Origin: Parcubacteria group bacterium
GTDB lineage: Bacteria; Patescibacteriota; Minisyncoccia; Phycocordibacterales; UBA2135
Assembly: GCA_016204045.1 (NCBI GenBank)
Contig: JACQLQ010000001.1
Span: 106,766-170,765 of the forward strand
Reading direction: 5' to 3'
Length of the DNA stretch: 64,000 nucleotides
The translations under genes and the position numbers were made by a program. Below, one piece after another: positions 7,892-36,046 of the stretch; positions within the stretch are counted from its first letter, which is position 1, and every line of letters begins with the position of its first letter. Below the pieces are notes generated by a model that was not told the DNA's origin, ran no database searches, and saw only the letters and a program-made list of their open reading frames with translations.

Positions 7892-10318
7892 TTAAGCTTT
7901 TTCTCCTTGCTCTGCTGCAAGAACGTTTTGGATTGTCTGCGGCACAGCATCGGGCATGACCGAAATAGAGTCGATGCCACAATCGACAAGGAACGCTGCG
8001 TAGTCGGGATGGTTTGAAGGGGCTTGGCCACAAATGCCGATCGGCTTGCCGAGGGCGTGTGCTTTCTCAATTGCCATTTTCATTAACTTCTTGACGCTTG
8101 GGTTGCGCTCATCCGCAATGTGGGCAAGCGCGCCGGAGTCACGATCAATGCCAACAGTCAATTGTGTCAGATCATTTGATCCAATAGAGAAGCCGTCAAA
8201 GTGAGGAGCAAATGATTCAAGATCAATGACATTAGTCGGAATTTCGACCATCATATACACCTCAAGATTATTTTCTCCGCGCACGAGACCGGACTTCTCC
8301 ATTTCCCTGATGACGCGCTCGCCTTCATCGGGCGTTCGGCAGAAGGGGACCATCACCTTTACATTTGTGAAGCCGTATTCATCGCGAACACGTTTGATTG
8401 CCTCACATTCAAGTGCGAACGCTTTGCGATAGCGCTCATCTGCGTACCGTGATGCACCTCGCCAACCCAGCATAGGGTTTTCCTCATGCGGCTCGAAGAG
8501 GTGTCCACCCAAAAGGCGGCGGTACTCGTTCGTCTTGAAATCGGAGAAACGGACAATAATCGGGTTCGGATACATTGCTCCAGCGAGTAGGGCAATGCCT
8601 TGGGTTAGTGTGCCCACCACATATTCGCGGAGTGTATCGTATCCCGCCGTAAGCTGCGCAACTCTCTTGCGCTCCTCGTCTGCAAGCGGAAGAAGTTGAA
8701 GGTCTTGTGTGGCGAGTGAAGGATGAAGCCGAATCAGGTTCTCCATGACAAACTCGAGCCGTACCAGACCAATGCCATCATTGGGGTACGCATAGAATCG
8801 TTCGGCGCTTGCCGGATCCGCCATGATGAACATCACTTTCGTGCGAGTTTGCTTCTTTGCCTCAAGGGCAGGACGGAGATCGGTAGTCTTGGTCTCAAGG
8901 ATCAATGTTCCTTTGAAAATAGTACCCTCGCCGCGCTCATTCTGATTTGCGTCAACAGTGACATCGCTCTTGCCTTGAAGGACCTCGGTCGCATGCTTTG
9001 CGCCAACAATACACGGAATACCAAGTTCGCGAGCAACAATTGCCGCGTGCGAGGTTTTGCCGCCTTCGTCAGTGACCACTGCCTTGGCTCTCCGCATAGC
9101 AGGAAGCCAATCTGGATCAGTCATCTTCGCAACAAGAATATTGCCAGTGCTAAACTGCGAAATGTCTTCGGGAGAATCAACGACTTGCGGGACACCACAG
9201 ACGGCTCCGGGGGAGGCTGCTGCACCGATAGCAAGCACTTGAGCAGACTGGCCAACCTTGACCAGCGTCGTTATTTGAATAAACGGATCTCGAAGTGCTG
9301 TCGCGGGACGCGTTTGGACAATATAGATTTTGCCGTCACCAATCTTCTCGCCATCACCAAACTTTGCCCACTCGACATCAATGGGGCGGCCGTAGTGCTC
9401 CTCAAGGAGAATCACTTGTTCAGCGAGGTACATCATTTCTTCTTGAGAAAGGCAGAAATGCTCGCGCTCTTCTTTTGTCGTATCCACAAGACGGACTGGT
9501 CCATGCTCGCCATATCCATAAATACGCTTGACAGTCTTGGTGCCGAGCTCTTTGCGAGCAAGTATGGGACGCGCGCCCTTCGTCGGCGGCTTCAAGAGCA
9601 TAAACGTATCCGGAGTGACTTCACCCTTAACCACAGTTTCGCCGAGCCCCCAACTTCCTTGGATACAAACGAGGAAGGGTGCTTGGGTCACTGGTTCGTG
9701 TGAGAACGCAACACCGGACGACGCTTTGTCGGAGCGAACCATCTTTTGCACGACAACGGCGATGCCATCTTCTGGGAAGAGTGGAATGCCACGTTCGTGT
9801 CGATACGCGATTGAACGTGCGGTAAAGAGGGACGCGAAACACTTGATAATGTGTTCAATCACATTCTTTGTACCGCGAATGTTCAAGTATGTCTCGTGCT
9901 GTCCGGCAAATGAAGAGTCATTACTGTCTTCACATACTGCCGAAGATCGCACGGCGACATCGGTGTTTTGGTCTCTGCTGTATTCTCTATCCAAAAGAAG
10001 GTACGCCCGGTGTACGGCCTTTTTCAAGCGCTCTGACATTTCTGTGTTTGCAATGTCTCGCCAAATGTAGCTTGCGTATTGACCGAGAGAACCGTCATTT
10101 GCGTCGAAGTTGATATGTCTCAAGTGCTCCTTGATAGTTGCTACGAGGTTTCCTTCCTCCATGAAGAACCGCCACAACACAGTAGTGACTGTGAAGCCAT
10201 TTGGAACGGCAACACCCTTTGACACCAACTCTCCCAGATTTGCACCCTTACCACCAGCAAGGTTGAGAGAATCTCTCGTCATGTCCTTAAACCAGAGAAT
10301 GAGTGGCTCCCTTTTCAT
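7892..10318 (-). CDS. ppsA: phosphoenolpyruvate synthase (pyruvate, water dikinase)
   Basis: N-terminal LAGGKGANLGEL ATP-grasp motif, a central phospho-histidine domain and a C-terminal PEP-utilizing domain (GICGQAPSNHPD). About 808 aa from MKREPLILWF. Confidence 0.85.
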   Translation of the reverse strand: MKREPLILWFKDMTRDSLNLAGGKGANLGELVSKGVAVPNGFTVTTVLWRFFMEEGNLVATIKEHLRHINFDANDGSLGQYASYIWRDIANTEMSERLKKAVHRAYLLLDREYSRDQNTDVAVRSSAVCEDSNDSSFAGQHETYLNIRGTKNVIEHIIKCFASLFTARSIAYRHERGIPLFPEDGIAVVVQKMVRSDKASSGVAFSHEPVTQAPFLVCIQGSWGLGETVVKGEVTPDTFMLLKPPTKGARPILARKELGTKTVKRIYGYGEHGPVRLVDTTKEEREHFCLSQEEMMYLAEQVILLEEHYGRPIDVEWAKFGDGEKIGDGKIYIVQTRPATALRDPFIQITTLVKVGQSAQVLAIGAAASPGAVCGVPQVVDSPEDISQFSTGNILVAKMTDPDWLPAMRRAKAVVTDEGGKTSHAAIVARELGIPCIVGAKHATEVLQGKSDVTVDANQNERGEGTIFKGTLILETKTTDLRPALEAKKQTRTKVMFIMADPASAERFYAYPNDGIGLVRLEFVMENLIRLHPSLATQDLQLLPLADEERKRVAQLTAGYDTLREYVVGTLTQGIALLAGAMYPNPIIVRFSDFKTNEYRRLLGGHLFEPHEENPMLGWRGASRYADERYRKAFALECEAIKRVRDEYGFTNVKVMVPFCRTPDEGERVIREMEKSGLVRGENNLEVYMMVEIPTNVIDLESFAPHFDGFSIGSNDLTQLTVGIDRDSGALAHIADERNPSVKKLMKMAIEKAHALGKPIGICGQAPSNHPDYAAFLVDCGIDSISVMPDAVPQTIQNVLAAEQGEKA

Positions 10319-13476: not shown

Positions 13477-14673
13477 TTAATTGCTATCGCCGCCAAGAGA
13501 GTCCTCGAGGAGTTTTTTTAGTCGTGGAGCGTCGTGTTCGTCAAAAACATGCTGTATTTCCACCATGTCTTTTTCGAGAAATGCTTTTAATGTAAGCCCT
13601 ATACTTGCCTGCAGGCTCTCGTCTATATGGAACAGTGTTATTGCTCGTAGTTCGCGTTCGGATGTCGTCTCTCCTTCTGTGCGGGCAGTGATGAGCCCCA
13701 CGAGTGTTCCATCTTCCAAGCTTACAACGGCGCCACCCGAAGATCCCTCTTGGGCACCAACAGTACCTGCTATGCCAAAAATATCGGGGGTATATGGTTC
13801 TGTTTCTCGAAAGGTGTATACACCCAAGACTGTTGTGACACTAGAGATTCCCCACAAATCGCGGTTTATGGTCGTGCCACCCAGGAAGCCTGCAGGGTAG
13901 CTTGCGACGAGAACAGGGAGCCCCTTCAAATCCGCGTCATTCTTTATGGCAGGAGTGAGTGTGGGCACAGATGAAGGAAGTGCGTCTTCTTCCAATATTC
14001 TCCCCGTAATGCGGAGAAAGGCGTAGTCATCTTTTCCGGTGCCTCTATTGTCGTCTTGGGAAAGTTTTTGCGCACTCCTCTCGACCCACGAGGGTGAGAG
14101 ATAGACCAACTCTGCGCGATAGGTGGGGTGCGCAGGGCTTCCCGTGCGGATGATGCAGTCAATGAAATCCTTAATACCCAAGTAATCACGGAGCAGAAAA
14201 TATTGCCCAACATGGGCGTTGGTCAGGATGATGCCGCGCGGGTCGATCAAGACCCCACTTCCCGAGAGTGGTTCAAATAATCCTCCGCTTTGCGACAGGC
14301 AAAATACATTCACAACAGCACTGCGCGCATCGGTGTTAATCTCCGGAATCGAAACGCGCACTTCGTGTTTAGGTGCACGAATGCGACTCAAGGCTTCGTC
14401 GATAAGCGCCTGAGAGATTAACTCTTGTTGTGGCAGTACCTCCGCCGAGACAACAGAAGCCGATGGTTCGCTTGGCGTACTCTCTTTCACAGGAGTTTCT
14501 TTTGCGGCCTGTTCGGTCACGGCTTCGCTTTGCACCTCCGTTCCCACGACAGAGACCGGTTGGAAATGAGCCACCGGGTCTGTTGTAGCATTGCCTCCAA
14601 TACCTAAAAAAAGGGCGATAGTTGCCACAAATGTCGCAAGCCCCTTTAAAATGGTAAGAAAAAAGGTTTCCAT
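13477..14673 (-). CDS. membrane-anchored trypsin-like serine protease (S1 family, HtrA-like core without an obvious PDZ domain)
   Basis: Catalytic triad context: TNAHV (His), D, GSSGGAV (Ser). N-terminal transmembrane segment. Confidence 0.65.
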   Translation of the reverse strand: METFFLTILKGLATFVATIALFLGIGGNATTDPVAHFQPVSVVGTEVQSEAVTEQAAKETPVKESTPSEPSASVVSAEVLPQQELISQALIDEALSRIRAPKHEVRVSIPEINTDARSAVVNVFCLSQSGGLFEPLSGSGVLIDPRGIILTNAHVGQYFLLRDYLGIKDFIDCIIRTGSPAHPTYRAELVYLSPSWVERSAQKLSQDDNRGTGKDDYAFLRITGRILEEDALPSSVPTLTPAIKNDADLKGLPVLVASYPAGFLGGTTINRDLWGISSVTTVLGVYTFRETEPYTPDIFGIAGTVGAQEGSSGGAVVSLEDGTLVGLITARTEGETTSERELRAITLFHIDESLQASIGLTLKAFLEKDMVEIQHVFDEHDAPRLKKLLEDSLGGDSN

Positions 14674-25338: not shown

Positions 25339-25614
25339 ATGCAGCACCCCTTCGCACTCAATGAAGATGGACGAAGAAACATAGTTGCTTGGCTCATCCT
25401 TCTTGTCGTGCTCATTGTTGTCGCGTGGTATACACTCATCCGTGATAGTGTCCCTCTTCCCATCGAGACTGGCACGCTCTTTACCAAAGATGAGAAACTT
25501 CACGTTCTTCAAGCGATTTCAGAGAGGAGTCAGGACAACGGTCTTACGCGCGCTGACAAGCAAGCAATCCTCGAAAGCATCGCGCGGGACAAGGAGCGCA
25601 CTGCGCAAGAGTAG
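25339..25614 (+). CDS. small membrane-anchored hypothetical protein
   Basis: One transmembrane helix (IVAWLILLVVLIVVAWY). Confidence 0.35.
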   Translation: MQHPFALNEDGRRNIVAWLILLVVLIVVAWYTLIRDSVPLPIETGTLFTKDEKLHVLQAISERSQDNGLTRADKQAILESIARDKERTAQE

Positions 25615-25644: not shown

Positions 25645-26772
25645 ATGCCCAAGACAATCTCATTCTTTATCCTTGCCCTCTTAGTAATCAGCGCAGTCGC
25701 CTTTTTGGGGGGTGCTGATACTACAAACGCTCAATCGGGCAGTATCCCGCTTAATGGGTGGGCGTGGAGCTCCAATGTCGGGTGGGTTAGTTTTAATTGC
25801 GCCACGACAGGCACATGTTCAGGTGTGAACTATGGAGTGACCGTGGATTCAAATAACGGTCAGTTTTCAGGATATGCGTGGAGTCCTACCATTGGGTGGA
25901 TTAGTTTTCGCGGGAGCGATACAACAGGCTGTCCAGCGTCTTCTTGTCAGGCAACACTCACAAACGGCGTAGTTTCTGGTTGGGCAAAAGCGCTTGCGGG
26001 GTCTGTTTCAAACGATGACTGGGATGGATGGATCAGGCTTGCCGGGTCAAATTACGGAGTAACATTAAGCGGTAGCAACTTTAGTGGATATGCATGGGGT
26101 GACGATGTTGTGGGTTGGATGAAATGGAACCCAGTCACCTACGGGGGTGTTACTTTGGCAGCAAATCCACCCACAGTGACTATGAGCGGCGATCCTCTTT
26201 CGGTGCCCGCCGGTGATACTGCGACATTGACGTGGAGTTCCACAAACGCAAATGCGTGTACGGGTACCGTGGGTACGGCTGATTGGCTTGGCGCTAAAGC
26301 GCTCTCAGGGTCTGAAGTCGTTGGCCCCGTTGATCAGACAACCACGTATACGATTGAGTGTACAGGGCTTGCAGGAAGTGATTCAAAAAGCGTCGTTATC
26401 AATGTACTTCCACCGGATTTTGCACTCACCCACACCAATGACCCAGTCCTTAATTTTGTGGGTGCCGGTAGTGATACCTCCAACCCGACGAGAATTAGGG
26501 TGACGGCACTCTATGGGTTTAGCGGTGACGTAGCACTCTCCGCATCGCCGAGTTCACTTGATGGTGAAAGTGCTACCTACACATTTGGTGATGCCACACT
26601 TTCCTCAAGTGAATACAATGCCGGTTCGTCCTTGACCATCACCCTCAATAACCCAATTTCAGAAGGAATATACACCATTACTGTTCGAGGAGAGGCGGCT
26701 GGGGGGCTTGTCCGAACAGTGAGTATCCCCGTGGAGGTCAATGTGTTTACGCCGGGCTTTGAAGAAATCTGA
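25645..26772 (+). CDS. secreted repeat protein with C-terminal Ig-like domain and PGFEEI tail
   Basis: Signal peptide. Three ~45-aa repeats of the form G(Y/W)AWS..(V/I)GW(V/I)SF. An Ig-like TLTWSSTNANACTG...TYTIECTG domain. The extreme C-terminus is FTPGFEEI-stop. Confidence 0.55.
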   Translation: MPKTISFFILALLVISAVAFLGGADTTNAQSGSIPLNGWAWSSNVGWVSFNCATTGTCSGVNYGVTVDSNNGQFSGYAWSPTIGWISFRGSDTTGCPASSCQATLTNGVVSGWAKALAGSVSNDDWDGWIRLAGSNYGVTLSGSNFSGYAWGDDVVGWMKWNPVTYGGVTLAANPPTVTMSGDPLSVPAGDTATLTWSSTNANACTGTVGTADWLGAKALSGSEVVGPVDQTTTYTIECTGLAGSDSKSVVINVLPPDFALTHTNDPVLNFVGAGSDTSNPTRIRVTALYGFSGDVALSASPSSLDGESATYTFGDATLSSSEYNAGSSLTITLNNPISEGIYTITVRGEAAGGLVRTVSIPVEVNVFTPGFEEI

Positions 26773-26840: not shown

Positions 26841-27674
26841 ATGTCCCACACCATCATCCACTTCGCTAAAGGATTCCTACTCGCCCTCATTTTGGTCGTC
26901 GGTATCTCCTACGTCCATGCCGCATGGTCAGAGCCGACAGCGACACCCCCCAACAACAACACCGCTCCTCCCATTAACGAAGGTGCTGTGGACCAAGTGA
27001 AGGACGCGGGTCTCTCGGTAGACGCACTCACCGTCTTCGGTGACTCCTATATCACAGGAAAGGTTGGTGTCGGTGTTGTGCCCTCTGGCTCAACACAGAA
27101 GATCGAAGCTGCTGGGTATGTGAAGGGGACAGGCCTTTGTATTGGTAGCGATTGTCGAACCTCATGGCCATCAAGCGGCATTGGCTCTGAAACAGATCCA
27201 ACCGTAACCTCAAGCGTGAAGGATGGTGTCTCATGGAGCGAAATCCAGAGCATGCCCGGTGGTTTCTCTGATAACGTCGACAACACAGGTGTGACTTCAG
27301 AGTCCGATCCGACCGTCACCGCATCAGTGAAAGACGGCGTCAGTTGGGGTGAGATCTCAGGACGCCCTTCTGGACTTGATGACGGTGACCAGATTGGTCT
27401 CACGTCTGAATCTGACCCCACCGTTCCGGGGAACATCAAGGATGGTATAAGTTGGTCAGAGATTAGCAGTCGTCCCTCGGGCCTTGATGATGGTGATCAA
27501 GTCGGGCTTACGAGAGTTTCGCCAAGTGATGTGGACTTTCGGATCGCAAAATGTACTGATACCAAAAACAACTGCACTCCCTCTTGTCCCGGGGGATATA
27601 CTAAAGTCTCCAATGATATGGGGATCTCTGGGTACACACAATGGTCTCGCATTGCAATTTGCATGAGGAACTAA
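26841..27674 (+). CDS. secreted protein with three tandem ~47-aa repeats (SE(T/S)DPTVT.SVKDGVSW.EI)
   Basis: N-terminal hydrophobic anchor or signal, tandem DNA repeats at ~27181-27480, and a Cys-containing C-terminal module. Confidence 0.5.
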   Translation: MSHTIIHFAKGFLLALILVVGISYVHAAWSEPTATPPNNNTAPPINEGAVDQVKDAGLSVDALTVFGDSYITGKVGVGVVPSGSTQKIEAAGYVKGTGLCIGSDCRTSWPSSGIGSETDPTVTSSVKDGVSWSEIQSMPGGFSDNVDNTGVTSESDPTVTASVKDGVSWGEISGRPSGLDDGDQIGLTSESDPTVPGNIKDGISWSEISSRPSGLDDGDQVGLTRVSPSDVDFRIAKCTDTKNNCTPSCPGGYTKVSNDMGISGYTQWSRIAICMRN

Positions 27675-27869
27675 AATCCTGGTTCAAAGGATTGCAGATT
27701 TAATAAATAGGAAAGTACGAAAAACACACTGGAAACAGCGTGTTTTTCGTCTTTTGAAAGAAATACCTTGATTTTCCATAGAAAGTATGCTATAATTGAC
27801 TTAGAAACTGCGGCGTGGTGTTGCGTGCTGGTGCATGCAAACTAGAACCGCAATGAATGAAGGAGCACG

Positions 27870-28589
27870 TTGATGAGAATCGTTCTATCGCTTTTCGCTG
27901 CGGCGCTTCTCGCCGCATGCGCAGGAAGTATCGATATCCCCCCGCCGCGAGGAAATATCGTTCCCATGACCTTCGAGCGTAACGAGCTCGACGGCAAGCT
28001 CCACAAAGTCGGCGAGGAAGAGTCCATCCAAGCAGGCGTTGTGGTGCCGCTTTTCGAGTTCGACAATCTCCCCGGTGAGTGGGGCGAGTCCTGCATGGTA
28101 GGCGCGAGACGGGTGGCCAAGCAGACGGACTGGTACAACATAGGTGAGATCTGTGCCCCCGACTTCCACGGTGTCTACCGTCTCGGGGGCGGCAAAAACA
28201 AGGATGTTTGGATTACCGTGCGTCCGCTTGTCGCTACGGGGCAGGTCCCTGCTGCAACAGTCAAAAGCTTCGCGCTCGACTTTGTCAGCAAAGCATTTGC
28301 CGACCTCAACGGCCGCCAAGGCCCAGTCACAGTGTTGGTCGCGCCTTCGGTGCAGGAGCTTCCAATTGCTGGCCACATCGCTTACTGTGCTACGGTTGAC
28401 GCGGTGTGGGAGGCAACATCGCGCGACGGCCAATTCGTTCGTCGCTTCTATGACTGGTGTCACGTTTTTGTCGGTAAAAACGCGATCCTCGCCTTCACGT
28501 TTGAGTATCGCGCGACCGACGGGGATGTCCCGCTCGACTTCAAGGCGTACATTGAAGCGACGATTCGCGATCTCCGCTTTTTCGACTGA
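27870..28589 (+). CDS. lipoprotein of unknown function on a high-GC island
   Basis: Lipobox LLAAC|AG after the signal peptide. Local GC is about 58-60%. A native-looking AT-rich promoter lies upstream and a strong terminator downstream. Confidence 0.5.
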   Translation: MMRIVLSLFAAALLAACAGSIDIPPPRGNIVPMTFERNELDGKLHKVGEEESIQAGVVVPLFEFDNLPGEWGESCMVGARRVAKQTDWYNIGEICAPDFHGVYRLGGGKNKDVWITVRPLVATGQVPAATVKSFALDFVSKAFADLNGRQGPVTVLVAPSVQELPIAGHIAYCATVDAVWEATSRDGQFVRRFYDWCHVFVGKNAILAFTFEYRATDGDVPLDFKAYIEATIRDLRFFD

Positions 28590-28717: not shown

Positions 28718-30115
28718 ATGCATTACATGGGGCATGTTGCTGTTTGGGGTTTTGTGCTCACTCTTTTTTTCTTTGCACCCACCTCTCCAGAAGAGCGTTT
28801 AGAGGTTTTCTCTTTTGAAAATCAAAGTAGTTTTAACGTTTTTGCCGCTCTTGGGGATGTGGATGAGCAATTAGATGAGTTAGGAGCGCCGCCTGACCCG
28901 GAGGGACCACCACTTTTAGATGAGCCAGTCATCATAGTCACTAACGAAGACGGTGGATGCCAAGGTTTCTTTGATTGTTTAGGAGATTTTCTTGATGATA
29001 TAGGTGATGCAATATCTGGCCTTTTTGGCGGCGGAGGCGATACTGGTGGAGGTGGTGATGAAGGAAGGGGGTTTGGCGAGGGAGGAGGTACGGGAGCTGC
29101 TCCAACGAGCCCCCAGGGTGTTGCATGGAATGCGCCACAAGTGGGGCGAGGCACAGATGGGTGTCCTTTGGAGGATTGCCACCTTGTTTCGCGGTCATTC
29201 GTCACAGAAACTGGTGATCGCGCGGTTGTGTACTCTGGCTATAATACTAAGGGCGATCTTGTTTATATTACACCCGTTGAGCCCCCCGAAGCGGGGGAGG
29301 CCCCAGGAGGTGACGAACCCTCGTGTATATTCTTTGGTCTCATATGCCCAGATACCGGTACTGAAACTACTACCACGACTACTACCACCACAGATGATGA
29401 CGATGATGATACTAACACCACCACAAATGGCAACGGGACTAACAACACCGTAGACACCGATGGTGATGGAATTAACGACGCTATAGACACCGACGACGAT
29501 GGTGATGGAATTAACGATACTGTAGACACTGACGACGATGGTGACGGGATTGACGACGCCGTGGACACCAATGGTAGGGCCACAAGCGGAACACCCGGAG
29601 GAGGCACTAGTGGCAGTAGCGGTGGATGCAACCCTCTAACACAGGACTGTGACGGTGGTAATACCACGAACGTGAGTGGATGCGACCCAGCAACAGCAGA
29701 TTGTGATGGCGGAATTGCTGGTGGGACATCGTGTGTCTCAAACTACAATGGGAACTGCACAGGGACACCAAATGCATGTGGAATGTCTTATTCTGGACGA
29801 ATCACCTGCACGGGTTCTTGCAACGCGCCAATGCGTCCCAATACCGACTGCCCAAGGCCGACTATCTCATTAAGTGCATCTCCGGATTTTGTCGAGCGAG
29901 GGAATGCGTGCACACTTACGTGGAGTGCGCAAAACGCAACCGAATGTGTAATCACTGGTTTTGGTGTCAATCACACAGGCGGACCCTCTGGTTCCACCCT
30001 GACCCCAGGCCTTGATCGTCAAGAAACGTATACCGCCCGTTGTTTCAATGGCCCCGATGTCTCTGGAACTGCCCAAACCACCTGCCGGCTCAATCCTGAA
30101 TTTGAAGAGATCTAA
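28718..30115 (+). CDS. secreted protein with thrombospondin type-3-like Ca-binding repeats, Thr/Asp-rich linker, Cys-rich domain and PEFEEI tail
   Basis: DTDGDGINDAIDTDDDGDGINDTVDTDDDGDGIDDAVD matches the DxDxDGxxDxxD repeat. A poly-Thr/poly-Asp run and an Ig-like TLTWSAQNATEC...TYTARC domain are present. The C-terminus is NPEFEEI-stop. Confidence 0.55.
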   Translation: MHYMGHVAVWGFVLTLFFFAPTSPEERLEVFSFENQSSFNVFAALGDVDEQLDELGAPPDPEGPPLLDEPVIIVTNEDGGCQGFFDCLGDFLDDIGDAISGLFGGGGDTGGGGDEGRGFGEGGGTGAAPTSPQGVAWNAPQVGRGTDGCPLEDCHLVSRSFVTETGDRAVVYSGYNTKGDLVYITPVEPPEAGEAPGGDEPSCIFFGLICPDTGTETTTTTTTTTDDDDDDTNTTTNGNGTNNTVDTDGDGINDAIDTDDDGDGINDTVDTDDDGDGIDDAVDTNGRATSGTPGGGTSGSSGGCNPLTQDCDGGNTTNVSGCDPATADCDGGIAGGTSCVSNYNGNCTGTPNACGMSYSGRITCTGSCNAPMRPNTDCPRPTISLSASPDFVERGNACTLTWSAQNATECVITGFGVNHTGGPSGSTLTPGLDRQETYTARCFNGPDVSGTAQTTCRLNPEFEEI

Positions 30116-30189
30116 ATCCAACTAAAACAGAAAGGCGCCTTCTCCACAGCTTGAAAGGGAGAAAGGCGCTTTTTTGCTATACTTAAAGC

Positions 30190-31938
30190 ATGCTAGTGAG
30201 CCAAGACAAACTCAAGGAGTTTCTTGTTGATTCGGATCTTGTAAGCCGCAATGATGTGGAACGCGCCGCGAAAGAGGCAGAGGAAAAGCACACTCCTCTT
30301 GCAGAAATACTTGTACGCGGAGGAGTTCTTTCGGAAGACGAAATCCGGCGTGCGCAGGCGTATGTCATCGGTATCCCCTTCATATCTCTACAAGGGGAAA
30401 AGATTCCTTTTGAGATACTTTCGCTCATCCCGGAACCGATTGCGCGAAGCCACAACGTCATTGCGCTCAAGAAGAATGACAATGCTCTTGAGGTGGCGAT
30501 GCTCGATACCGACGACCTCGGAGCAATTGACTTTGTGAAGAAAAAGGTTGGCTTGAAGATACTTCCTCGCCTCACTGACAAAGAATCGATTAAATCAGCC
30601 CTCCTACAATACCAGAAGAGCCTGAAGGCCGAGTTTGGCGATATCATTAAAAAAGAGGCGGGCACTCTGGAAGAGATGGGGACATCCCCAGATGTTTCTG
30701 ATGCCGGGGAGTTGAAGAAACTTGCCGAAGATATCCCTATTGTCCGTATTGTAGACACCCTGACATACCACGCAATTCTCCAAGATGCCTCCGATATTCA
30801 TATTGAGCCCCAAGAAAAACTCGTACTCATTCGGTACCGCATTGATGGGATTCTGCACGATGCGATGGAGTTGCCGAAAAATGCTGCGTCCGGGATTATA
30901 GCCCGTATCAAAGTTCTCGCGGACCTAAAACTCGATGAGAAGCGTTTGCCACAGGACGGGAGATTTAGGATTGAGAAAGAGGGACAAAGAGTTTCGTTTC
31001 GTGTTTCGATACTTCCGACCTTTTACGGTGAGAAAGCCGTTATGCGGCTACTCAAGGAAGATATTAAGGGATTTACCCTCGAAGAACTGGGTTTTCATGG
31101 CGAGGGTCTCGAGCGTATTCACAAAGCGTTGCGCAAGACCACAGGTATGATTTTGGCAACGGGACCGACGGGGTCGGGCAAGACGACAACACTCTACACA
31201 GCTCTCGAAATTTTGAATACCCCGAAAGTCAACATCTCCACTATTGAGGACCCTATTGAATACCAACTACCACGCATCAACCAGACCCAGGTCAGACCGG
31301 AAATAGGGTTTATGTTTGCAAACGGACTGCGCTCGCTTGTCCGCCAAGACCCAGACATTATTATGGTCGGTGAGATCCGGGATAGAGAAACGGCGGGGCT
31401 CGCTATTAACGCCTCACTAACGGGGCACCTCGTATTATCGACACTGCACACTAATTCTGCCGCAGGGGCTATTCCCCGGCTCCTCGACATGCAGGTCGAG
31501 TCCTTCCTCCTCACCTCAACCGTCGATGTCATCATAGCGCAACGTCTTGTGCGTCAACTCTGCCCTGACAAAGAGAAATATTTTCTCACAAAAGAAGAAA
31601 TCAAGAATCTTGCAGAAAAAGCGGATCTAGACAAAGTCCTGTCAGTGCTCAAAGAAGAGCATGTTGTTCCAGCTGAAGCAGAGTGGGAGACAGTACCTTT
31701 TTATCGCCCCAAAGAAACAGCAGATTGTAAAGAGGGGTATCGGAGTCGCAAGGGCATACACGAGGTGTTGAAAGTGACCCCGTCTATTAAAGAGCTCATT
31801 ATGCGAGGAGCGAGTACAGATGAGATTGAAGCACAGGCACGAAAAGAGGGAATGCTCACCATGATCGAAGACGGGCTTTTTAAAGCGGCTGGGGGGATCA
31901 CTACCATAGAAGAGGTGTTGCGCGTTATTTCTGAGTAG
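30190..31938 (+). CDS. pilB: type IV pilus / type II secretion assembly ATPase (PilB/GspE family)
   Basis: Walker A LATGPTGSGKTTTLY, Asp box, Walker B VGEIRD and a His box LSTLHTN. Confidence 0.85.
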   Translation: MLVSQDKLKEFLVDSDLVSRNDVERAAKEAEEKHTPLAEILVRGGVLSEDEIRRAQAYVIGIPFISLQGEKIPFEILSLIPEPIARSHNVIALKKNDNALEVAMLDTDDLGAIDFVKKKVGLKILPRLTDKESIKSALLQYQKSLKAEFGDIIKKEAGTLEEMGTSPDVSDAGELKKLAEDIPIVRIVDTLTYHAILQDASDIHIEPQEKLVLIRYRIDGILHDAMELPKNAASGIIARIKVLADLKLDEKRLPQDGRFRIEKEGQRVSFRVSILPTFYGEKAVMRLLKEDIKGFTLEELGFHGEGLERIHKALRKTTGMILATGPTGSGKTTTLYTALEILNTPKVNISTIEDPIEYQLPRINQTQVRPEIGFMFANGLRSLVRQDPDIIMVGEIRDRETAGLAINASLTGHLVLSTLHTNSAAGAIPRLLDMQVESFLLTSTVDVIIAQRLVRQLCPDKEKYFLTKEEIKNLAEKADLDKVLSVLKEEHVVPAEAEWETVPFYRPKETADCKEGYRSRKGIHEVLKVTPSIKELIMRGASTDEIEAQARKEGMLTMIEDGLFKAAGGITTIEEVLRVISE

Positions 31939-31942
31939 TACT

Positions 31943-33157
31943 ATGCGTTTTACATACAAGGCACAAACCAGAGAGGGCGAAATCACGCAGGGCGAAGCTG
32001 AAGCCGCTGATCGTTTTGCATTGGCTCGCTCACTACATGAGGGCGGGAAAACGGTAATCACCGTGGAGCCACTTCACGATGATGAGGAAAACCTTTTTAC
32101 GCGCATAGAGAGCTTCTTGGGAAGCATTCATCTTCGCGACAAGATACTCTTTGCGCGCAATCTCTCGTCGATGATTGAGGCGGGGCTACCACTTTCGCGT
32201 GCACTTAGTATCTTAAAGCGTCAAACACGGAACGAAACACTGAGGAATGTTACAAGTTCTCTTGAAGGAGATATCGCGAAGGGCTCCTCTTTCCATGGAG
32301 CTCTCCGCGCATTTCCTGATGTTTTTTCACCACTCTTCGTCGCTATGGTGAAGGCGGGCGAGGAGAGTGGTAAGTTGTCGCCCTCGCTTGCAATCGTCGG
32401 TGAGCACCTTGAGCGTGTCTATATCTTACAAAGACGTATTCGCGGCGCGCTTGTGTATCCGGCTATCATTGTTATCGCGATGGTTATTGTCGGTGTTTTG
32501 ATGCTTACGTATGTAGTGCCCTCGCTAGCAGCGACATTCAAAGATTTGAACGTTGATCTGCCCGCGAGTACGCAATTCATCATCATAGTGAGTGATTTTT
32601 TTTCAGAAATGCCCCTCCTTTCATTCACACTTCTCTTTATTGTAGGGCTCGCAATATTCTTTGCGCTCCGATCACGTGTGGGGCGTGCAAAATTGGCCGA
32701 ATTCTCCATGAGAATCCCAGTTATTGGGGAAATCATTAAAAACATAAACTCTGCCCGTACTGCCAGGACACTCTCTTCGCTACTTGCTTCCGGGGTCAAT
32801 ATGGTTGAGGCCATCACGATTACAGAAGAGGTGCTCCAAAATCGAGAATATAAAGAGGTAATGCGCGAAGCAAAAGAGCGCATCCAAAAAGGCGAGACGC
32901 TTTCAAAAGTATTCATTGAACACGAAGATGTGTACCCGGTCCTCATTGCGGAGATGACTGCCGTCGGGGAGGAGACAGGCGCTCTTTCAGGGATGCTCCT
33001 TAAGGCCGCGACGTTTTATGAAGACGAAGTTGAGCAGGCGACAAAAAATCTTTCGACAATCATTGAGCCAGTTTTGATGGTCGTCATCGGAGTCGCTGTC
33101 GGCTTCTTTGCTTTTTCCATGATAACTCCTCTCTATTCAGTCTTAGGCGGTATCTAA
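31943..33157 (+). CDS. pilC: type IV pilus assembly platform protein (PilC/GspF family)
   Basis: Two GspF repeats and three transmembrane helices. Immediately downstream of pilB. Confidence 0.8.
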   Translation: MRFTYKAQTREGEITQGEAEAADRFALARSLHEGGKTVITVEPLHDDEENLFTRIESFLGSIHLRDKILFARNLSSMIEAGLPLSRALSILKRQTRNETLRNVTSSLEGDIAKGSSFHGALRAFPDVFSPLFVAMVKAGEESGKLSPSLAIVGEHLERVYILQRRIRGALVYPAIIVIAMVIVGVLMLTYVVPSLAATFKDLNVDLPASTQFIIIVSDFFSEMPLLSFTLLFIVGLAIFFALRSRVGRAKLAEFSMRIPVIGEIIKNINSARTARTLSSLLASGVNMVEAITITEEVLQNREYKEVMREAKERIQKGETLSKVFIEHEDVYPVLIAEMTAVGEETGALSGMLLKAATFYEDEVEQATKNLSTIIEPVLMVVIGVAVGFFAFSMITPLYSVLGGI

Positions 33158-33162
33158 ATACC

Positions 33163-33615
33163 ATGAGAGGAATTACCTTACTCGAAATACTTGTTGCTCT
33201 AAGCATCTTCGGGCTGCTCGGCACATTTGGTGTCACGACGCTATCAGGATTTAAGAAAGCAATTGATCTCAGTGGAGCAGCAGATACAACAATTGCGATG
33301 CTTGAAGATGCGCGATCTCGCACCCGGTTTTCGAACGATCGTTCGCAATACGGTATTCACTTTGCGACAAACAGAGTGACACTCTTTCGCGGCGTGTCGT
33401 ATGTGGAGGGGGCTCCAGAGAATGAGAGTACAACCCTACCGCAAACGGTTGAGATTTCTACCGTAACACTAACCGGAGGGGGTTCAGACGTTCTATTTGA
33501 AGTATTAACCGGAGAGGCAAATAAGACAGGTACCGTTATCATACGACTCAAAAGTGACGTTTCAAAAACACGCATCGTCGAGATACAACAATCCGGAGTT
33601 GCTGGAATACAATGA
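33163..33615 (+). CDS. prepilin-type N-terminal cleavage/methylation domain protein (pilin or pseudopilin)
   Basis: MRGITLLEILVALSIFGLLG fits the class III signal (G|xTLxE + hydrophobic helix). Confidence 0.75.
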   Translation: MRGITLLEILVALSIFGLLGTFGVTTLSGFKKAIDLSGAADTTIAMLEDARSRTRFSNDRSQYGIHFATNRVTLFRGVSYVEGAPENESTTLPQTVEISTVTLTGGGSDVLFEVLTGEANKTGTVIIRLKSDVSKTRIVEIQQSGVAGIQ

Positions 33616-33645
33616 ATTACTGGCGCATAGGAGCCACAACCGAAC

Positions 33646-34176
33646 ATGTTCGTTCAACATTTACTAAAAACCATACGCTATAGACCAAAGACTAAACAAG
33701 GGTTTGGTCTGTTGGAGATTGTCATTTCATCGGCCATCATCTCAGCTTCGCTCATCGCGCTCGTTACAGCAACCCAACTTTCGTACAGGGCAGTGGAAGA
33801 GGTTTTGCAAAGGACGCAAGCGGAGTTCCTCGCAGAAGAAGGCTTTGAAGCGGTGCGGGTATTGCGCGGGGCAGGATGGTCCCTTGTTATTACCCCGCTT
33901 ATTAACGGAACGGTTTATTATCCAACGTTTGCTACCTCAACATCGGCCTGGTCACTCTCACTCTCTAATCCGGGCTTAATAAACAATCTTTTTACTCGCA
34001 CTGTTGTTTTTGCGGCCGTGTGTCGGAAAAACGCTGATGATGACATTGTCGCTTGCAACGCTCCCGACCCACACTATACAGACACTGGCACACGAGAGGT
34101 GTTGTCCCGTGTGACATGGGGGGTGAATGAGGAGGTTGAATTCCAGGGCTACATTACAGATTTGTTTGATAACTAG
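33646..34176 (+). CDS. prepilin-type minor pilin
   Basis: KQGFGLLEIVISSAIISASLIALV prepilin motif. Confidence 0.7.
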   Translation: MFVQHLLKTIRYRPKTKQGFGLLEIVISSAIISASLIALVTATQLSYRAVEEVLQRTQAEFLAEEGFEAVRVLRGAGWSLVITPLINGTVYYPTFATSTSAWSLSLSNPGLINNLFTRTVVFAAVCRKNADDDIVACNAPDPHYTDTGTREVLSRVTWGVNEEVEFQGYITDLFDN

Positions 34177-34207
34177 TCTTCTAGGTATTGTTTTGGCGTG
34201 CATATCT

Positions 34208-34738
34208 ATGCAAAAAAAAAGGCACAATCAAAGACACGAAGGAGTTTCCCTTATTGAGGCGGTAGTTTACGTCGCTATTTTTGCAATGGTGTTTGCAATC
34301 GTCGTAAACACCGCGGTGGTGCTTGCTGACTTGCACGGCAAAACGAGGGCAAAAAAAGAGATCTTAACCGAGACGCGTCTTGGGGTTGAGCGCATGTTGC
34401 AAGAAATTCGTTTTGCCCAAAGCATTGATGTCGCTGGGAGTTCGTTCGGAGTTAACCCGGGGACATTGAAGCTAAACACAACAGTTGCTTCTGACGATGA
34501 TACGCCGATTACCCGGGCATTCTTTGTCCAAAACGGCGCCCTTATAATGAGGGAGGGGGTCTCAAATGATATTGCACTTACATCTGGTATTACGTTTTCT
34601 CGTCTTGTTTTTTACAATATTACGCAGGCGTCTACTTCGGAAGCCGTCCGCCTTGAGGTTACGGGAGAAAGAGGGATCGGGGTGCGTAGGGCCGAGCGTA
34701 AGTTTGAAAGCACAGCGGTACTTCGAAGGAGTTATTAA
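34208..34738 (+). CDS. prepilin-type minor pilin
   Basis: HEGVSLIEAVVYVAIFAMVFAIVV at the internal Met (MQKKR). The longer upstream ORF extension overlaps the previous gene. Confidence 0.65.
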   Translation: MQKKRHNQRHEGVSLIEAVVYVAIFAMVFAIVVNTAVVLADLHGKTRAKKEILTETRLGVERMLQEIRFAQSIDVAGSSFGVNPGTLKLNTTVASDDDTPITRAFFVQNGALIMREGVSNDIALTSGITFSRLVFYNITQASTSEAVRLEVTGERGIGVRRAERKFESTAVLRRSY

Positions 34739-34747
34739 TGACAAAAC

Positions 34748-36046
34748 ATGCTCGCGTATACGCAATCCAAAGATTTACATAGGGGGCAAGCGGCACTTAT
34801 CGGTGTGTTCCTTTTTGTCGGCGTTACGTTCTCAATCGCTTTTGGAGCCTCAACCATTGCTCTTAAAGAGACCGAATTAGTTCGCGACAATGCTCTCGCT
34901 AAGCAGGGATATTATGTGTCAGAGTCTGCGCAAGAAGATGTCGTGTATCGCCTACGCACAGGCATGGATGTCAGTAGTCAGGAAGTGCTCAACGTCGGTG
35001 ACTTCTATGCCACAAGCACAGTGGTTGATGATGATGGTACCAAGACGACGACAACAAGTGCCTATGTTGGGGAAAACTTACGAAAGACAGAAACAATAGT
35101 TTCTATAGCTGATGGGGTCACGTTTAATTACGGTGTTCATATTGGGCTTGGAGGGCTCCTTCTCGAGAACTCCTCGTCTATAGCCGGAAATGCACTCTCG
35201 AATGGCCCGGTGACAGGTAGTGGCAACCTCATCAAAGGGGATGTGATTTCAACTGGTGCAGTCGGATTAGTTGATGATATCCACGCAACATCAACAGTCT
35301 ATGCAAACACGATTCGCGACTCGTACATTGAAAAGGATGCATATTATCAAACTAAACAAAACACCACGGTGCTCGGCACAAGCTACCCAGGAAGCCCCAA
35401 CCAATCAGCGGTTCCTCTCCCCATCTCGGATGTGCTTATCACAGAATGGGAGGCGGCCGCGGCTGCGGGTGGTACCCTCACGTGTAACGAGGGTGACGAG
35501 CATGAAATTAAAACAGATACCACACTCGGTCCTGCCAAAATCCCCTGTGATCTAGAAATTACGGGATCTCCAACAGTCACCTTGAACGGCCCCATTTGGG
35601 TAACTGGTAACATTGAAATAGCCAACTCATCCCGCCTTATCACCAACGTGTCCCTTGGGACCGATGACGTCGTCGTAATTGCAGACAATCCTTCTAACCA
35701 ATTATCTTCAAGCAAGATTGACATCAAAAACTCTGCTTCTTTCGAAAGTGGCACAACCGGCTCCTACATCCTCCTTCTTTCACAAAACAAAAGCACTGAA
35801 CAAGGGGGTGGCGAGACAGCGATTGAATTTCAAAATACCGCTACCGGATTGAACTCGTTGCTCCTCTATGCTGGTCATGGCGCCATTCTCATTCACAACT
35901 CGGCGAAACTTCGAGAAGTCTCCGCATACAAATTGCATTTAAAGAATACCTCTCAGGTAGAATACGAATCAGGCGTCGCGAACTCTATCTTTGAAAGCGG
36001 CCCTGGCGGCTCGTATGATATTATTGATTGGAAAGAAATAGAGTAA
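34748..36046 (+). CDS. large pilus-associated protein (PilX/tip-adhesin-like), N-terminally anchored
   Basis: N-terminal hydrophobic segment (GQAALIGVFLFVGVTFSIAFG) resembling a pseudopilin anchor, then a ~400-aa Thr/Ser/Gly-rich beta-type domain. Last gene of the pilus operon. Confidence 0.5.
   Translation: MLAYTQSKDLHRGQAALIGVFLFVGVTFSIAFGASTIALKETELVRDNALAKQGYYVSESAQEDVVYRLRTGMDVSSQEVLNVGDFYATSTVVDDDGTKTTTTSAYVGENLRKTETIVSIADGVTFNYGVHIGLGGLLLENSSSIAGNALSNGPVTGSGNLIKGDVISTGAVGLVDDIHATSTVYANTIRDSYIEKDAYYQTKQNTTVLGTSYPGSPNQSAVPLPISDVLITEWEAAAAAGGTLTCNEGDEHEIKTDTTLGPAKIPCDLEITGSPTVTLNGPIWVTGNIEIANSSRLITNVSLGTDDVVVIADNPSNQLSSSKIDIKNSASFESGTTGSYILLLSQNKSTEQGGGETAIEFQNTATGLNSLLLYAGHGAILIHNSAKLREVSAYKLHLKNTSQVEYESGVANSIFESGPGGSYDIIDWKEIE

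What the first reader, a model, noticed from the sequence alone, without database searches (positions are those of the whole stretch)
26740..26772. Two secreted proteins flanking the pilus locus share an extreme C-terminal P(G/E)FEEI-COOH tail after an Ig-like TLTWS...C domain
The 25645-26772 product ends ...NVFTPGFEEI*. The 28718-30115 product ends ...RLNPEFEEI*. Both tails follow an Ig-like module of similar design (TLTWS(S/A)xNAxxC...TYT(I/A)(E/R)C). The tail is not followed by a transmembrane helix, so it is unlike PGF-CTERM or PEP-CTERM sorting signals. It could be a new C-terminal recognition tag, for secretion, for docking onto the type IV pilus encoded next door, or a PDZ-type protease-recognised C-terminus.
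Basis: seen in the sequence. Interest (0 to 1): 0.5.

Follow-up and report, generated by a model that had tools for sequence, protein, structure and literature searches.

The report
Parcubacterial C-terminal surface-protein docking tag
The six-residue ending shared by the two proteins is real and belongs to a lineage-wide C-terminal tag (Pro-x-aromatic-x-Glu-hydrophobic, then stop) carried by many unrelated secreted proteins of Parcubacteria, often encoded beside type IV pilus genes, so it is probably an undescribed signal that docks surface proteins to a receptor in a large uncultured bacterial group.

Summary
ORF 25645-26772 ends PGFEEI-stop and ORF 28718-30115 ends PEFEEI-stop; no other ORF in the window does. 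It is not a recent duplication: the proteins share only a 38%-identical Ig-like domain and no DNA similarity beyond the tail codons.

The tail is a modular motif, P-x-[FWY]-x-E-[FI]-COOH.
- 112 of 120 homologues of the first protein carry it, behind at least five kinds of preceding domain.
- The Ig-like domain occurs in other phyla without it.
- Outside that family, it marks 13 of 362 signal-bearing ORFs against 2 of 839 others.
- A motif-only metagenome scan found a further unrelated family at the head of the same pilus cluster.
- All named carriers are Parcubacteria.
- No Pfam or NCBIfam model or paper describes it.

Tail genes form tandem arrays and often precede PilB, PilC, three minor pilins and a ComZ-like tip pilin. 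That pilin's own last strand ends W-x-E-[VIT]. Two other neighbours recur: a membrane-anchored TPR protein and a small bitopic repeat protein.

Best reading: a non-covalent docking or retention tag read by an extracytoplasmic receptor. The receptor is inferred, not shown.

The parts
25645..26772 (+). P1: secreted 375-aa protein (NCBI HY455_00775, Parcubacteria group bacterium). Signal peptide, Trp-rich N-terminal domain, two Ig-like domains, then the tail.
25744..26127 (+). P1 N-terminal domain (residues 34-161): three G[WY]AWSxxxGW[IV]SF repeats with invariant Trp. It is the most conserved part of the family and has no Pfam or PDB relative.
26173..26409 (+). P1 Ig-like domain 1 (residues 177-255), the TLTWS...C module shared with P2.
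26419..26748 (+). P1 Ig-like domain 2 (residues 259-368). It lies between the TLTWS module and the tail.
   Evidence: (Big_13, sub-threshold)
26752..26769 (+). P1 tail PGFEEI (residues 370-375); stop codon TGA at 26770-26772. Unstructured in the AF2 monomer, pLDDT about 76.
28718..30115 (+). P2: secreted 465-aa protein. Signal or anchor sequence, acidic and Thr/Asp-rich repeats, Cys-rich module, one Ig-like domain, then the tail.
29858..30088 (+). P2 Ig-like TLTWS...C domain (residues 381-457), directly preceding the tail.
30095..30112 (+). P2 tail PEFEEI (residues 460-465); stop codon TAA at 30113-30115. A hairpin plus T-run follows at about 30132-30178.
25339..25614 (+). Small bitopic membrane protein (91 aa): N-in TM helix, then two T-x-[DA]-[ED]-K-x-x-[IV]-L-x-x-I repeats. 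Its family lies directly next to tail-bearing P1 genes in at least 25 loci. Candidate receptor or anchor (inferred).
26841..27674 (+). Conserved partner gene: secreted protein whose mature N-terminus is AWSEPTATPPNNNTAPPINEG. It belongs to a large family with this N-terminal motif.
30190..33157 (+). PilB/GspE-type ATPase (30190-31938) and PilC/GspF platform protein (31943-33157).
33163..34738 (+). Three small prepilin-type (N_methyl) minor pilins: 33163-33615, 33646-34176 and 34127-34738.
34748..36046 (+). ComZ-like tip pilin (432 aa): pilin helix and sheet with an inserted beta-solenoid. It lacks Glu5.
36014..36043 (+). C-terminal strand YDIIDWKEIE of the ComZ-like pilin (residues 423-432), after a disordered loop. 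W428 and E430 are invariant, and 116 of 120 homologues end W-x-E-[VIT](-x).

Best explanation
The tail is a short, modular C-terminal recognition tag with consensus P-x-[F/W/Y]-x-E-[F/I]-COOH. It is appended to Sec-exported surface proteins of Parcubacteria.

Proposed mechanism:
1. After export and signal-peptide cleavage, the tail hangs free behind the last beta-sandwich domain (shown for the monomer model only).
2. An extracytoplasmic receptor binds it non-covalently as an extended peptide (inferred).
3. This keeps the otherwise soluble protein on the cell surface and/or loads it onto the priming or tip complex of the type IV pilus encoded next door (inferred).

The variable adhesin-like domains are thereby displayed with the anchoring end at the C-terminus, as in LPXTG proteins but without a TM helix or covalent step.

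Candidate receptors, in order of my preference:
- (a) A membrane-anchored TPR protein found directly upstream of tail genes. Precedents are PEX5/PTS1, HOP/EEVD and BamD/OMP C-terminal signal.
- (b) The small bitopic repeat protein encoded at 25339-25614.
- (c) The minor-pilin/ComZ-like tip complex, whose own last pilin-fold strand carries the same aromatic-x-Glu-hydrophobic signature.

Shown: existence, conservation, modularity, restriction to signal-bearing proteins, and the gene neighbourhoods. Inferred: binding, the identity of the receptor, and the consequence for localisation.
For: Conservation. 112 of 120 best P1 homologues carry the motif at or within a few residues of the C-terminus. 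E374 is near-invariant in an alignment whose middle region is hypervariable. The logo from 199 distinct tails is P(-5) 70%, F/Y/W(-3) 81%, F/I(0) 66%.

Modularity. The tail follows TLTWS Ig, CARDB/Big-like, Cys-rich CGNxxCE and DGxxDYPxDPGC modules, and also PKD, Big_2, InlB-B-repeat and TSP1 architectures. The same Ig domain in 118 of 150 HMMER hits from other contexts lacks the tail.

Protein-level selection. All Pro codons occur, TTT/TTC are 11/11 and GAA/GAG 21/16. P1 and P2 share no DNA similarity beyond the tail codons.

Restriction to exported proteins. Outside the P1 family, 13 of 362 signal-bearing ORFs carry it against 2 of 839 others; both of those two are 5'-truncated at contig ends. 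Fisher p = 8e-6.

Motif-only metagenome scan. 7 of 11 long ORFs ending PxFEEF are secreted Parcubacteria-type proteins. One is a new family at the head of a cluster of PilB, PilC, three pilins, a ComZ-like pilin, tpiA and pgk.

Synteny and tandem arrays. 18 loci have P1 followed by PilB/PilC, pilins and a ComZ-like pilin. Tandem arrays of tail genes occur in L035, L049, L036, L065, L146 and L203.

ComZ-like pilin. 116 of 120 homologues end W-x-E-[VIT](-x). This segment is predicted as a beta-strand after a disordered loop. The fold matches ComZ, Foldseek E 1e-7. In ComZ the last strand of the pilin fold follows the inserted solenoid (PMC6561018).

TPR neighbour. A homologous membrane-anchored TPR gene lies directly upstream of tail genes of three architectures in L081, L203, L053/L060 and L207. 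BamD, a periplasmic TPR lipoprotein, binds OMP C-terminal targeting peptides (PMC4262575).

Small bitopic neighbour. It is adjacent to 25 of 56 tail-bearing P1 genes and 0 of 14 tail-less ones, Fisher p = 0.0012.

Linker. Gly-rich linkers of variable length precede the tail in several homologues, and the tail is coil in the P1 model. Both fit a tethered peptide ligand.
Against: - No binding or localisation has been shown, and only monomer models could be made.
- No TPR homologue lies in this 64-kb window, and the TPR family was seen in only 6 of about 95 loci.
- Tail genes also sit in ribosomal and EF operons and near rpsB-tsf, with no pilus genes within 10 kb. One nusA-to-tpiA slot has a tail gene but no PilB or PilC.
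- In the P2 family the last residue is variable (I, F, D, H, Q, N, E).
- About 10% of P1 homologues extend a few residues beyond the motif, or carry an amphipathic helix after it. A free hydrophobic C-terminus is therefore not strictly required.
- The neighbour statistics are not corrected for phylogeny, and most loci were chosen by homology to P1.
- The resemblance to the ComZ-like strand rests on three positions and could be coincidence.
Confidence: 0.5

Rival explanations
1. Donor-strand element. The tail is a beta-strand that completes or extends a beta-sheet of another subunit. The acceptor could be the edge of a minor-pilin fold or the Trp-rich N-terminal domain of P1-type proteins. The tagged proteins would then become structural parts of a fibre or tip complex rather than ligands of a separate receptor.
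For: - The same aromatic-x-Glu-hydrophobic signature forms the last strand of the ComZ-like pilin, after a flexible loop.
- Conserved positions alternate (-5, -3, -1), as on one face of a strand.
- In P1 the N-terminal domain and the tail are conserved while the middle is hypervariable.
- Tail genes lie at the head of the pilus cluster.
Against: - The tail stays coil in the full-length P1 monomer model, although its own N-domain is available.
- Many tail proteins lack the Trp-rich domain and are encoded far from pilus genes.
- No multimer model could be run.
Confidence: 0.15
2. Processing or sorting signal of a covalent system. The motif is what remains of, or is the cleavage site for, a tripartite C-terminal signal handled by an unknown sortase-, exosortase- or protease-like enzyme. 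Most members have lost the TM segment.
For: - A minority carry the motif followed by x-P-P and an amphipathic or hydrophobic helix (P0091, P0116, P0102, L038), or by short extensions such as PKWKEVIPR.
- The Pro-containing signature resembles PEP, PGF and PEF motifs.
Against: - About 90% end right after the motif and have no membrane segment to hold them at an intramembrane or membrane-bound enzyme.
- The extensions lack the basic cluster and contain charged residues.
- No NCBIfam sorting-signal model matches, even for extended forms.
- No sortase or exosortase gene was seen in the neighbourhoods examined.
Confidence: 0.12
3. Structural cap with no partner. The tail only stabilises the last domain or protects the C-terminus from carboxypeptidases in a protease-rich environment.
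For: - It is short, rich in Pro and acidic residues, and sits right after the last strand.
- The last residue is variable in the P2 family.
Against: - The same motif follows at least five unrelated folds.
- It is sometimes separated from the last domain by long Gly-rich linkers.
- It has no secondary structure in the model.
- Its genes cluster with specific neighbours.
Confidence: 0.1
4. PDZ-type recognition. The free C-terminus is read by a PDZ protease or regulator (DegS-, Tsp- or CtpA-like) for quality control or signalling.
For: - The tail has a hydrophobic C-terminal residue with conserved upstream positions.
- A trypsin-like peptidase is encoded at 13477-14673.
Against: - Conserved positions are 0, -1, -3 and -5, whereas PDZ ligands typically rely on 0 and -2 (my knowledge).
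- No PDZ domain was detected in that peptidase or in conserved neighbours.
- The tag marks stable adhesin-like proteins in tandem arrays.
Confidence: 0.06
5. Chance, or recent duplication or gene conversion between two neighbouring genes.
For: The two genes are 2 kb apart and share an Ig-like module.
Against: - The shared module is only 38% identical and sits at different positions in the two proteins.
- There is no flanking DNA similarity.
- Hundreds of other proteins carry the tail.
Confidence: 0.01

Closest known systems
PTS1 (SKL-COOH) read by PEX5, and EEVD-COOH read by HOP/CHIP/TOM70 TPR domains (my knowledge)
   Same: A very short, transferable tag at the extreme C-terminus, acidic/hydrophobic in the EEVD case. 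It is read non-covalently by a TPR domain. Here a TPR protein is a recurrent neighbour of tail genes.
   Different: Those systems are eukaryotic and cytosolic, and they read 3-5 residues. This tag is extracytoplasmic, bacterial, has Pro(-5)/aromatic(-3)/Glu(-1), and its binding to a TPR is untested.
OMP C-terminal beta-signal recognised by BamD (TPR lipoprotein) and by the DegS PDZ domain (PMC4262575; my knowledge for DegS)
   Same: An envelope-located C-terminal aromatic/hydrophobic signal on Sec-exported proteins. BamD binds peptides based on that signal.
   Different: The beta-signal is the last strand of a membrane barrel, with the pattern aromatic-x-Phe. The proteins here are soluble beta-sandwich proteins, the register differs (aromatic at -3, Glu at -1), and no Bam components are present.
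PEP-CTERM/exosortase, PGF-CTERM and PEF-CTERM/archaeosortase, LPXTG/sortase, MYXO-CTERM/myxosortase
   Same: Lineage-specific C-terminal tags on many unrelated secreted proteins, with a short Pro-containing signature. The anchoring end is C-terminal, behind Ig-like stalks.
   Different: All of these are tripartite (signature, TM helix, basic cluster) and are processed by a membrane enzyme. About 90% of the tails here stop right after the signature, and no library model matches.
ComZ/PilA2 tip complex of Thermus thermophilus, and PilY1 or large PilX-type tip adhesins (PMC6561018, PMC11623550)
   Same: The cluster encodes a ComZ-like solenoid-bearing pilin with minor pilins. Non-pilin or large adhesin-like proteins encoded alongside are expected at the pilus tip.
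   Different: No C-terminal hexapeptide tag has been described for loading proteins onto such tips. ComZ is a DNA receptor in a diderm.
C-terminal donor strands of Bacteroidota type V pili (my knowledge)
   Same: A C-terminal strand is used for subunit-subunit strand complementation.
   Different: Those strands are longer, and the systems are lipoprotein-derived, protease-activated and unrelated to type IV machinery.

Membership tests
PGF-CTERM / PEF-CTERM / PEP-CTERM sorting domains | Signature motif followed by a hydrophobic TM helix and a basic cluster at the extreme C-terminus | tested here: not met
   The stop codon follows the motif directly in P1 and P2 and in 46 related ORFs, with no consistent read-through TM.
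PGF-CTERM / PEF-CTERM / PEP-CTERM sorting domains | Match to the curated NCBIfam/TIGRFAM sorting-signal HMMs | tested here: not met
   No NCBIfam hit for P1, P2 or the extended variants at E up to 1.
PGF-CTERM / PEF-CTERM / PEP-CTERM sorting domains | Cognate archaeosortase or exosortase in the genome | not testable with these tools
   Only 64 kb of the genome and 10-kb flanks of relatives could be read; none was seen there.
LPXTG / sortase substrates | LPXTG-like motif plus TM helix plus positive tail | tested here: not met
   No such motif or TM helix.
Ig-like (beta-sandwich) domains preceding the tail | Beta-sandwich fold | tested here: met
Type IV pilus / T2SS-like gene cluster (neighbourhood) | GspE/PilB ATPase, GspF/PilC platform, prepilin-type N-terminal methylation motifs | tested here: met
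   T2SSE E 1.7e-125, T2SSF E 5.8e-57. N_methyl motif in three small ORFs, just below the gathering score.
ComZ-like tip pilin (34748-36046) | Pilin helix and sheet with a beta-solenoid inserted before the last strand | tested here: met
   AF2: helix 12-70, sheet 78-120, solenoid 130-405, terminal strand 423-431. Foldseek top hit 6qvi ComZ, E 1e-7, probability 1.0. Topology as described in PMC6561018.
TPR-read C-terminal tags (PTS1-, EEVD- or BamD-type) | Direct binding of the free C-terminal peptide in a TPR groove | not testable with these tools
   Only gene adjacency of a TPR family to tail genes in 5-6 loci. NCBIfam gives generic TPR hits below cut-off. Multimer modelling was not available.
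PDZ ligands | Recognition of positions 0 and -2 by a PDZ domain encoded in the system | tested here: inconclusive
   Conserved positions are 0, -1, -3 and -5. No PDZ domain was found in conserved neighbours. The whole genome was not searchable.

The most novel reading that the evidence does not exclude
Parcubacteria may use a PTS1-like system outside the cytoplasmic membrane. A hexapeptide at the extreme C-terminus would be read by a membrane-anchored TPR (or small repeat) receptor, which selects Sec-exported adhesins and loads them onto the ComZ-like tip complex of a type IV pilus. This would be a linear cargo signal for a type IV filament machine, and it would define the host-contact surfaceome of an uncultured phylum from sequence alone.
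Probability: 0.2. Interest if true: 0.8.

Novelty: new variant of a known kind. Interest (0 to 1): 0.62.

Why it matters
Parcubacteria (Paceibacteria/Minisyncoccia) are abundant, uncultured, ultrasmall bacteria thought to live attached to hosts. How they display adhesins is unknown.

- A sequence-readable C-terminal tag would let their surface or pilus-associated proteome be listed directly from metagenomes.
- It would point to candidate receptors: the TPR protein, the bitopic repeat protein and the tip-pilin complex.
- It would give a simple peptide-binding experiment.
- If the tag loads cargo onto a type IV filament, it would be the first linear signal of that kind.

Tried and rejected
- **Word-index homology search with the P2 C-terminal 164 aa.** It found nothing. 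The full HMMER search was needed.
- **Curated libraries.** Pfam, NCBIfam and PDB sequence searches gave nothing for P1, P2, the partner genes, the extended variants or the small bitopic protein.
- **AF2.** Only monomers could be modelled and no coordinates are returned, so tail-receptor docking could not be tested. Both jobs are used.
- **Read-through or alternative genetic code.** Rejected: all three stop codons are used and nothing consistent lies downstream. An in-frame small TM gene after one tail gene (L167) is not in frame elsewhere.
- **Recent duplication or DNA repeat.** Rejected.
- **Repeat number versus tail-gene number.** The number of repeats in the bitopic protein does not track the number of tail genes per locus.
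- **Metagenome pattern scan.** Most of the 120 hits were chance out-of-frame matches; only 11 ended long ORFs.
- **Extending the window.** Exact-protein look-up failed or returned a 2.7-kb contig, so no genome-wide census was possible.
- **Single-operon claim.** Softened: a 15-bp palindrome at 27717-27750 and a strong hairpin plus T-run after P2 suggest several transcripts.
- **Literature.** Four full-text searches, plus term look-ups in a Parcubacteria genome paper and a Saccharibacteria pilus paper, found no description of the tag.
Full report
**1. Observation**

The window is from a Parcubacteria-group MAG: P1 is identical to NCBI HY455_00775. GC content is 48.8% and standard stop codons are used.

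ORF 25645-26772 (P1, 375 aa) ends ...EVNVFTPGFEEI-TGA. ORF 28718-30115 (P2, 465 aa) ends ...TTCRLNPEFEEI-TAA. No other ORF of at least 30 aa in the six frames of the window has such an ending. Both proteins start with a hydrophobic signal sequence. Nothing hydrophobic follows either stop codon.

The shared 'TLTWS...C' module is a genuine but distant similarity: 38% identity over 64 aa, E 4e-7. It sits in the middle of P1 (residues 176-239) and at the end of P2 (residues 381-442). The DNA of the two ends is alike only in the FEEI codons.

Two details of the finding are wrong. Both genes lie upstream of the pilus genes rather than flanking them. In P1 a second Ig-like domain separates the TLTWS module from the tail.

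**2. The tail is a conserved, modular motif**

- **P1 homologues.** Of the 120 best (all named ones are Parcubacteria, Paceibacteria, Giovannonibacteria, Niyogibacteria and similar), 89 end aromatic-x-E-x. The count is 100 when any hydrophobic residue is allowed at -3. Twelve more carry P-x-[FWY]-x-E-[IVT] followed by a short extension.
- **Alignment.** In 25 full-length orthologues the N-terminal Trp-rich domain and the tail align while the middle is hypervariable; E374 is near-invariant.
- **Logo.** From 199 distinct tails: Pro at -5 (70%), F/Y/W at -3 (81%), Glu at -1 (fixed by the selection pattern, so not an independent result), F or I at 0 (66%).
- **Preceding domains.** At least five kinds precede the tail: TLTWS-Ig, CARDB/Big-like, the Cys-rich 'CGNxxCE...DC' module, 'DGxxDYPxDPGC', and PKD, Big_2, InlB-B-repeat or TSP1 architectures.
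- **Linkers.** The tail is sometimes preceded by Gly-rich linkers.
- **Codons.** Synonymous codons vary freely at the conserved positions, so selection acts on the peptide.

**3. The tail is not part of the Ig-like domain**

An exhaustive HMMER search with P2 found 1283 proteins. Among the best 150, 118 are mostly large multi-repeat proteins with the same Ig-like domain but other endings, including TM/Arg-rich tails. Only 32 mostly shorter proteins end in the tail. Those with names are Parcubacteria, Minisyncoccia or Adlerbacteria.

The P2 family proper consists of a signal sequence, a variable region, a Cys-rich module, the Ig domain and then 'C-x-[LI]-N-P-x-[FY]-x-E-x'. Its last residue is variable.

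**4. Enrichment and restriction to exported proteins**

The sample was the window plus 80 related genome loci (1.24 Mb, 1277 crude ORFs).
- 46 ORFs end [FWY]xE[FILMV], against 1.9 expected.
- 37 also have Pro at -5, against 0.2 expected.

These loci were chosen by homology to P1, so the fairer test excludes that family. There, 13 of 362 ORFs with an N-terminal hydrophobic signal carry the tail, against 2 of 839 others. Both exceptions are 5'-truncated at contig ends. Fisher p = 8e-6.

A motif-only scan of metagenome contigs used CCNNNNTTYGARGAATTYTAA and gave 120 hits, mostly chance. Eleven ended ORFs of at least 250 aa:
- Seven were secreted Parcubacteria-type proteins.
- Four were ordinary cytoplasmic proteins.

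One of the seven defines a new family ('...CPAxxVxIxF[DN]PxFEEF'; L191, L174, L102).

**5. Genomic context**

In 18 loci the arrangement is nusA (opposite strand), then P1-type gene(s), PilB, PilC, three small pilins, a large pilin, tpiA and pgk. L191 and L167, both found by motif alone, show the same cluster. In L191 the unrelated tail family takes the P1 position.

Tail genes form tandem arrays: three in a row in L035 and L049, pairs in L036, L065, L146, L010 and L012, and three in L203.

The association with pilus genes is not universal.
- P2-type and other tail genes sit near rpsB-tsf (L081, L203, L209).
- Some sit inside str/S10 ribosomal operons (L205, L208).
- One sits beside recA (L204).
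- One sits in a nusA-to-tpiA slot without PilB or PilC (L206).

In the window, hairpins at 27717-27750 and after P2 (-20 kcal/mol, z -4.05, followed by a T-run) suggest several transcripts rather than one operon.

**6. The large pilin shares the signature**

ORF 34748-36046 (432 aa) has a prepilin-like N-terminus without Glu5. Of 120 homologues, 116 end W-x-E-[VIT], usually with one further residue. W428 and E430 are invariant.

AF2 (pLDDT 85) predicts these elements:
- a pilin helix (12-70);
- a four-stranded sheet (78-120);
- a beta-solenoid (130-405);
- a disordered loop (408-422);
- a terminal strand (423-431).

The best PDB match is the Thermus tip pilin ComZ: 6qvi, E 1e-7, probability 1.0. 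[quoted passage not shown] In this protein, therefore, the aromatic-x-Glu-hydrophobic ending is most likely the last strand of the pilin fold.

The resemblance to the appended tails is limited to three positions. It is suggestive, not proof of a shared binding mode.

**7. Two further recurrent neighbours**

*(a) A small bitopic membrane protein.* In the window it is 25339-25614, 91 aa. It overlaps a spurious ORF that my crude gene caller preferred. It has an N-in TM helix followed by 1-3 repeats of [ST]-x-[ED]-E-K-x-x-I-L-x-x-[LI].

It lies directly beside 25 of 56 tail-bearing P1-type genes and beside none of 14 tail-less ones, Fisher p = 0.0012 with phylogeny not controlled. A similar small TM protein follows the unrelated tail family in L191 and L174. 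It has no Pfam family.

*(b) A membrane-anchored TPR protein family.* Members are 35-40% identical to each other. The gene lies immediately upstream of tail genes of three architectures:
- P2-type in L081 and L203;
- P1-type in L053 and L060;
- a third type in L207.

A sixth copy (L070) precedes a secreted protein that is cut by the contig end. NCBIfam gives only generic TPR similarity below cut-offs. No copy lies within this window.

**8. Mechanism**

*Shown:*
- The tag is lineage-specific, transferable, selected at the peptide level and extracytoplasmic.
- It is unstructured in the P1 monomer model (tail residues 369-375 are coil, pLDDT about 76).
- Its genes cluster with each other, with a type IV pilus minor-pilin cluster, and with two kinds of membrane-anchored proteins.

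*Inferred:* the tail is bound non-covalently by an extracytoplasmic receptor. This retains the protein on the surface and/or loads it onto the pilus priming or tip complex.

Among receptor candidates, the TPR protein has the best mechanistic precedent. TPR domains read PTS1 and EEVD C-termini (my knowledge). [quoted passage not shown] The bitopic repeat protein has the widest adjacency. The tip-pilin complex has the synteny and the shared signature.

*Rivals:* donor-strand complementation (a variant of docking), a degenerate covalent sorting signal, a structural cap, and PDZ recognition.

Against a covalent system: the TM segment is absent in about 90% of members, and no curated sorting-signal model matches. 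In its favour: rare variants have the motif followed by x-P-P and an amphipathic helix.

**9. Comparison and novelty**

The tag fails the defining features of PGF-, PEF- and PEP-CTERM and of LPXTG: no TM helix, no basic cluster and no HMM match. It works most like C-terminal peptide tags read by TPR domains, or like a non-covalent analogue of wall-anchor signals.

No Pfam-A (2025) or NCBIfam 20.0 model describes it. Neither do the papers retrieved by four full-text searches, nor a Parcubacteria genome paper and a Saccharibacteria pilus paper queried for C-terminal, sortase and minor-pilin terms.

I rate it a new variant of a known kind (C-terminal sorting or docking tags), with interest 0.62. 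The existence and distribution of the tag are solid. The receptor and the function remain to be shown.

Noticed in passing
window 25339-25614 (+): 91-aa bitopic membrane protein with two T-x-[DA]-[ED]-K-x-x-[IV]-L-x-x-I repeats. Its family (1-3 repeats) lies directly beside tail-bearing P1-type genes in at least 25 loci and beside none of 14 tail-less ones. No Pfam family.
   Followed up: partly
window 26841-27674 (+); 43 ORFs in 32 related loci: Secreted proteins whose mature N-terminus is (A)W[TS]xP[TS]xxPPxxNxxxP[ILV]N, often in tandem arrays next to tail genes. This is a second conserved terminal motif of unknown role.
   Followed up: partly
window 34748-36046 (+): ComZ-like tip pilin with an inserted beta-solenoid. 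116 of 120 homologues end W-x-E-[VIT](-x), and this segment is predicted as a strand after a disordered loop.
   Followed up: yes
L081 8673-9449; L203 about 9060-9883; L053 8275-9192; L060 3565-4422; L207 1790-2524; L070 19134-19958: A membrane-anchored TPR protein family lies immediately upstream of tail-bearing genes of three different architectures. Library hits are only generic TPR matches.
   Followed up: partly
window 25744-26127 (P1 residues 34-161): Trp-rich domain with three G[WY]AWSxxxGW[IV]SF repeats and invariant Trp/Gly. It is more conserved than the rest of the protein and has no Pfam or PDB relative.
   Followed up: partly
window about 29360-29590 (P2 residues about 215-290): Poly-Thr and poly-Asp runs plus repeated DTDDDGDGI[ND]D units that look like calcium-binding thrombospondin-type-3 repeats. 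No Pfam hit.
   Followed up: no
window 27717-27750 and 30132-30178: A 15-bp perfect palindrome lies between the partner gene and the lipoprotein gene. A strong hairpin (-20 kcal/mol, z -4.05) plus T-run follows P2. The cluster is probably transcribed in several units.
   Followed up: partly
P0091, P0116, P0102; L038 9311-11182; L050, L051, L058, L074: Variants in which the motif is followed by x-P(-P) and either 1-8 residues or an amphipathic/hydrophobic helix, for example LPKWKEIPPIIWLKNFFASIGRIFGMIL. They may be an ancestral or membrane-tethered form of the tag.
   Followed up: partly
L123 2-1306 (GC 65%): A TSP1 + PKD protein ending ...ANVIPGFEEF on a high-GC contig. The tag may occur outside typical Parcubacteria.
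   Followed up: no
L205, L208, L206: Tail genes are inserted inside ribosomal-protein/EF operons (between fusA and tuf; after rplB). One sits in a nusA-to-tpiA slot that lacks PilB and PilC.
   Followed up: no
window 27873-28589 (+): Putative lipoprotein (LAAC lipobox) between the two tail genes. It is conserved only in the closest relative, L001.
   Followed up: no
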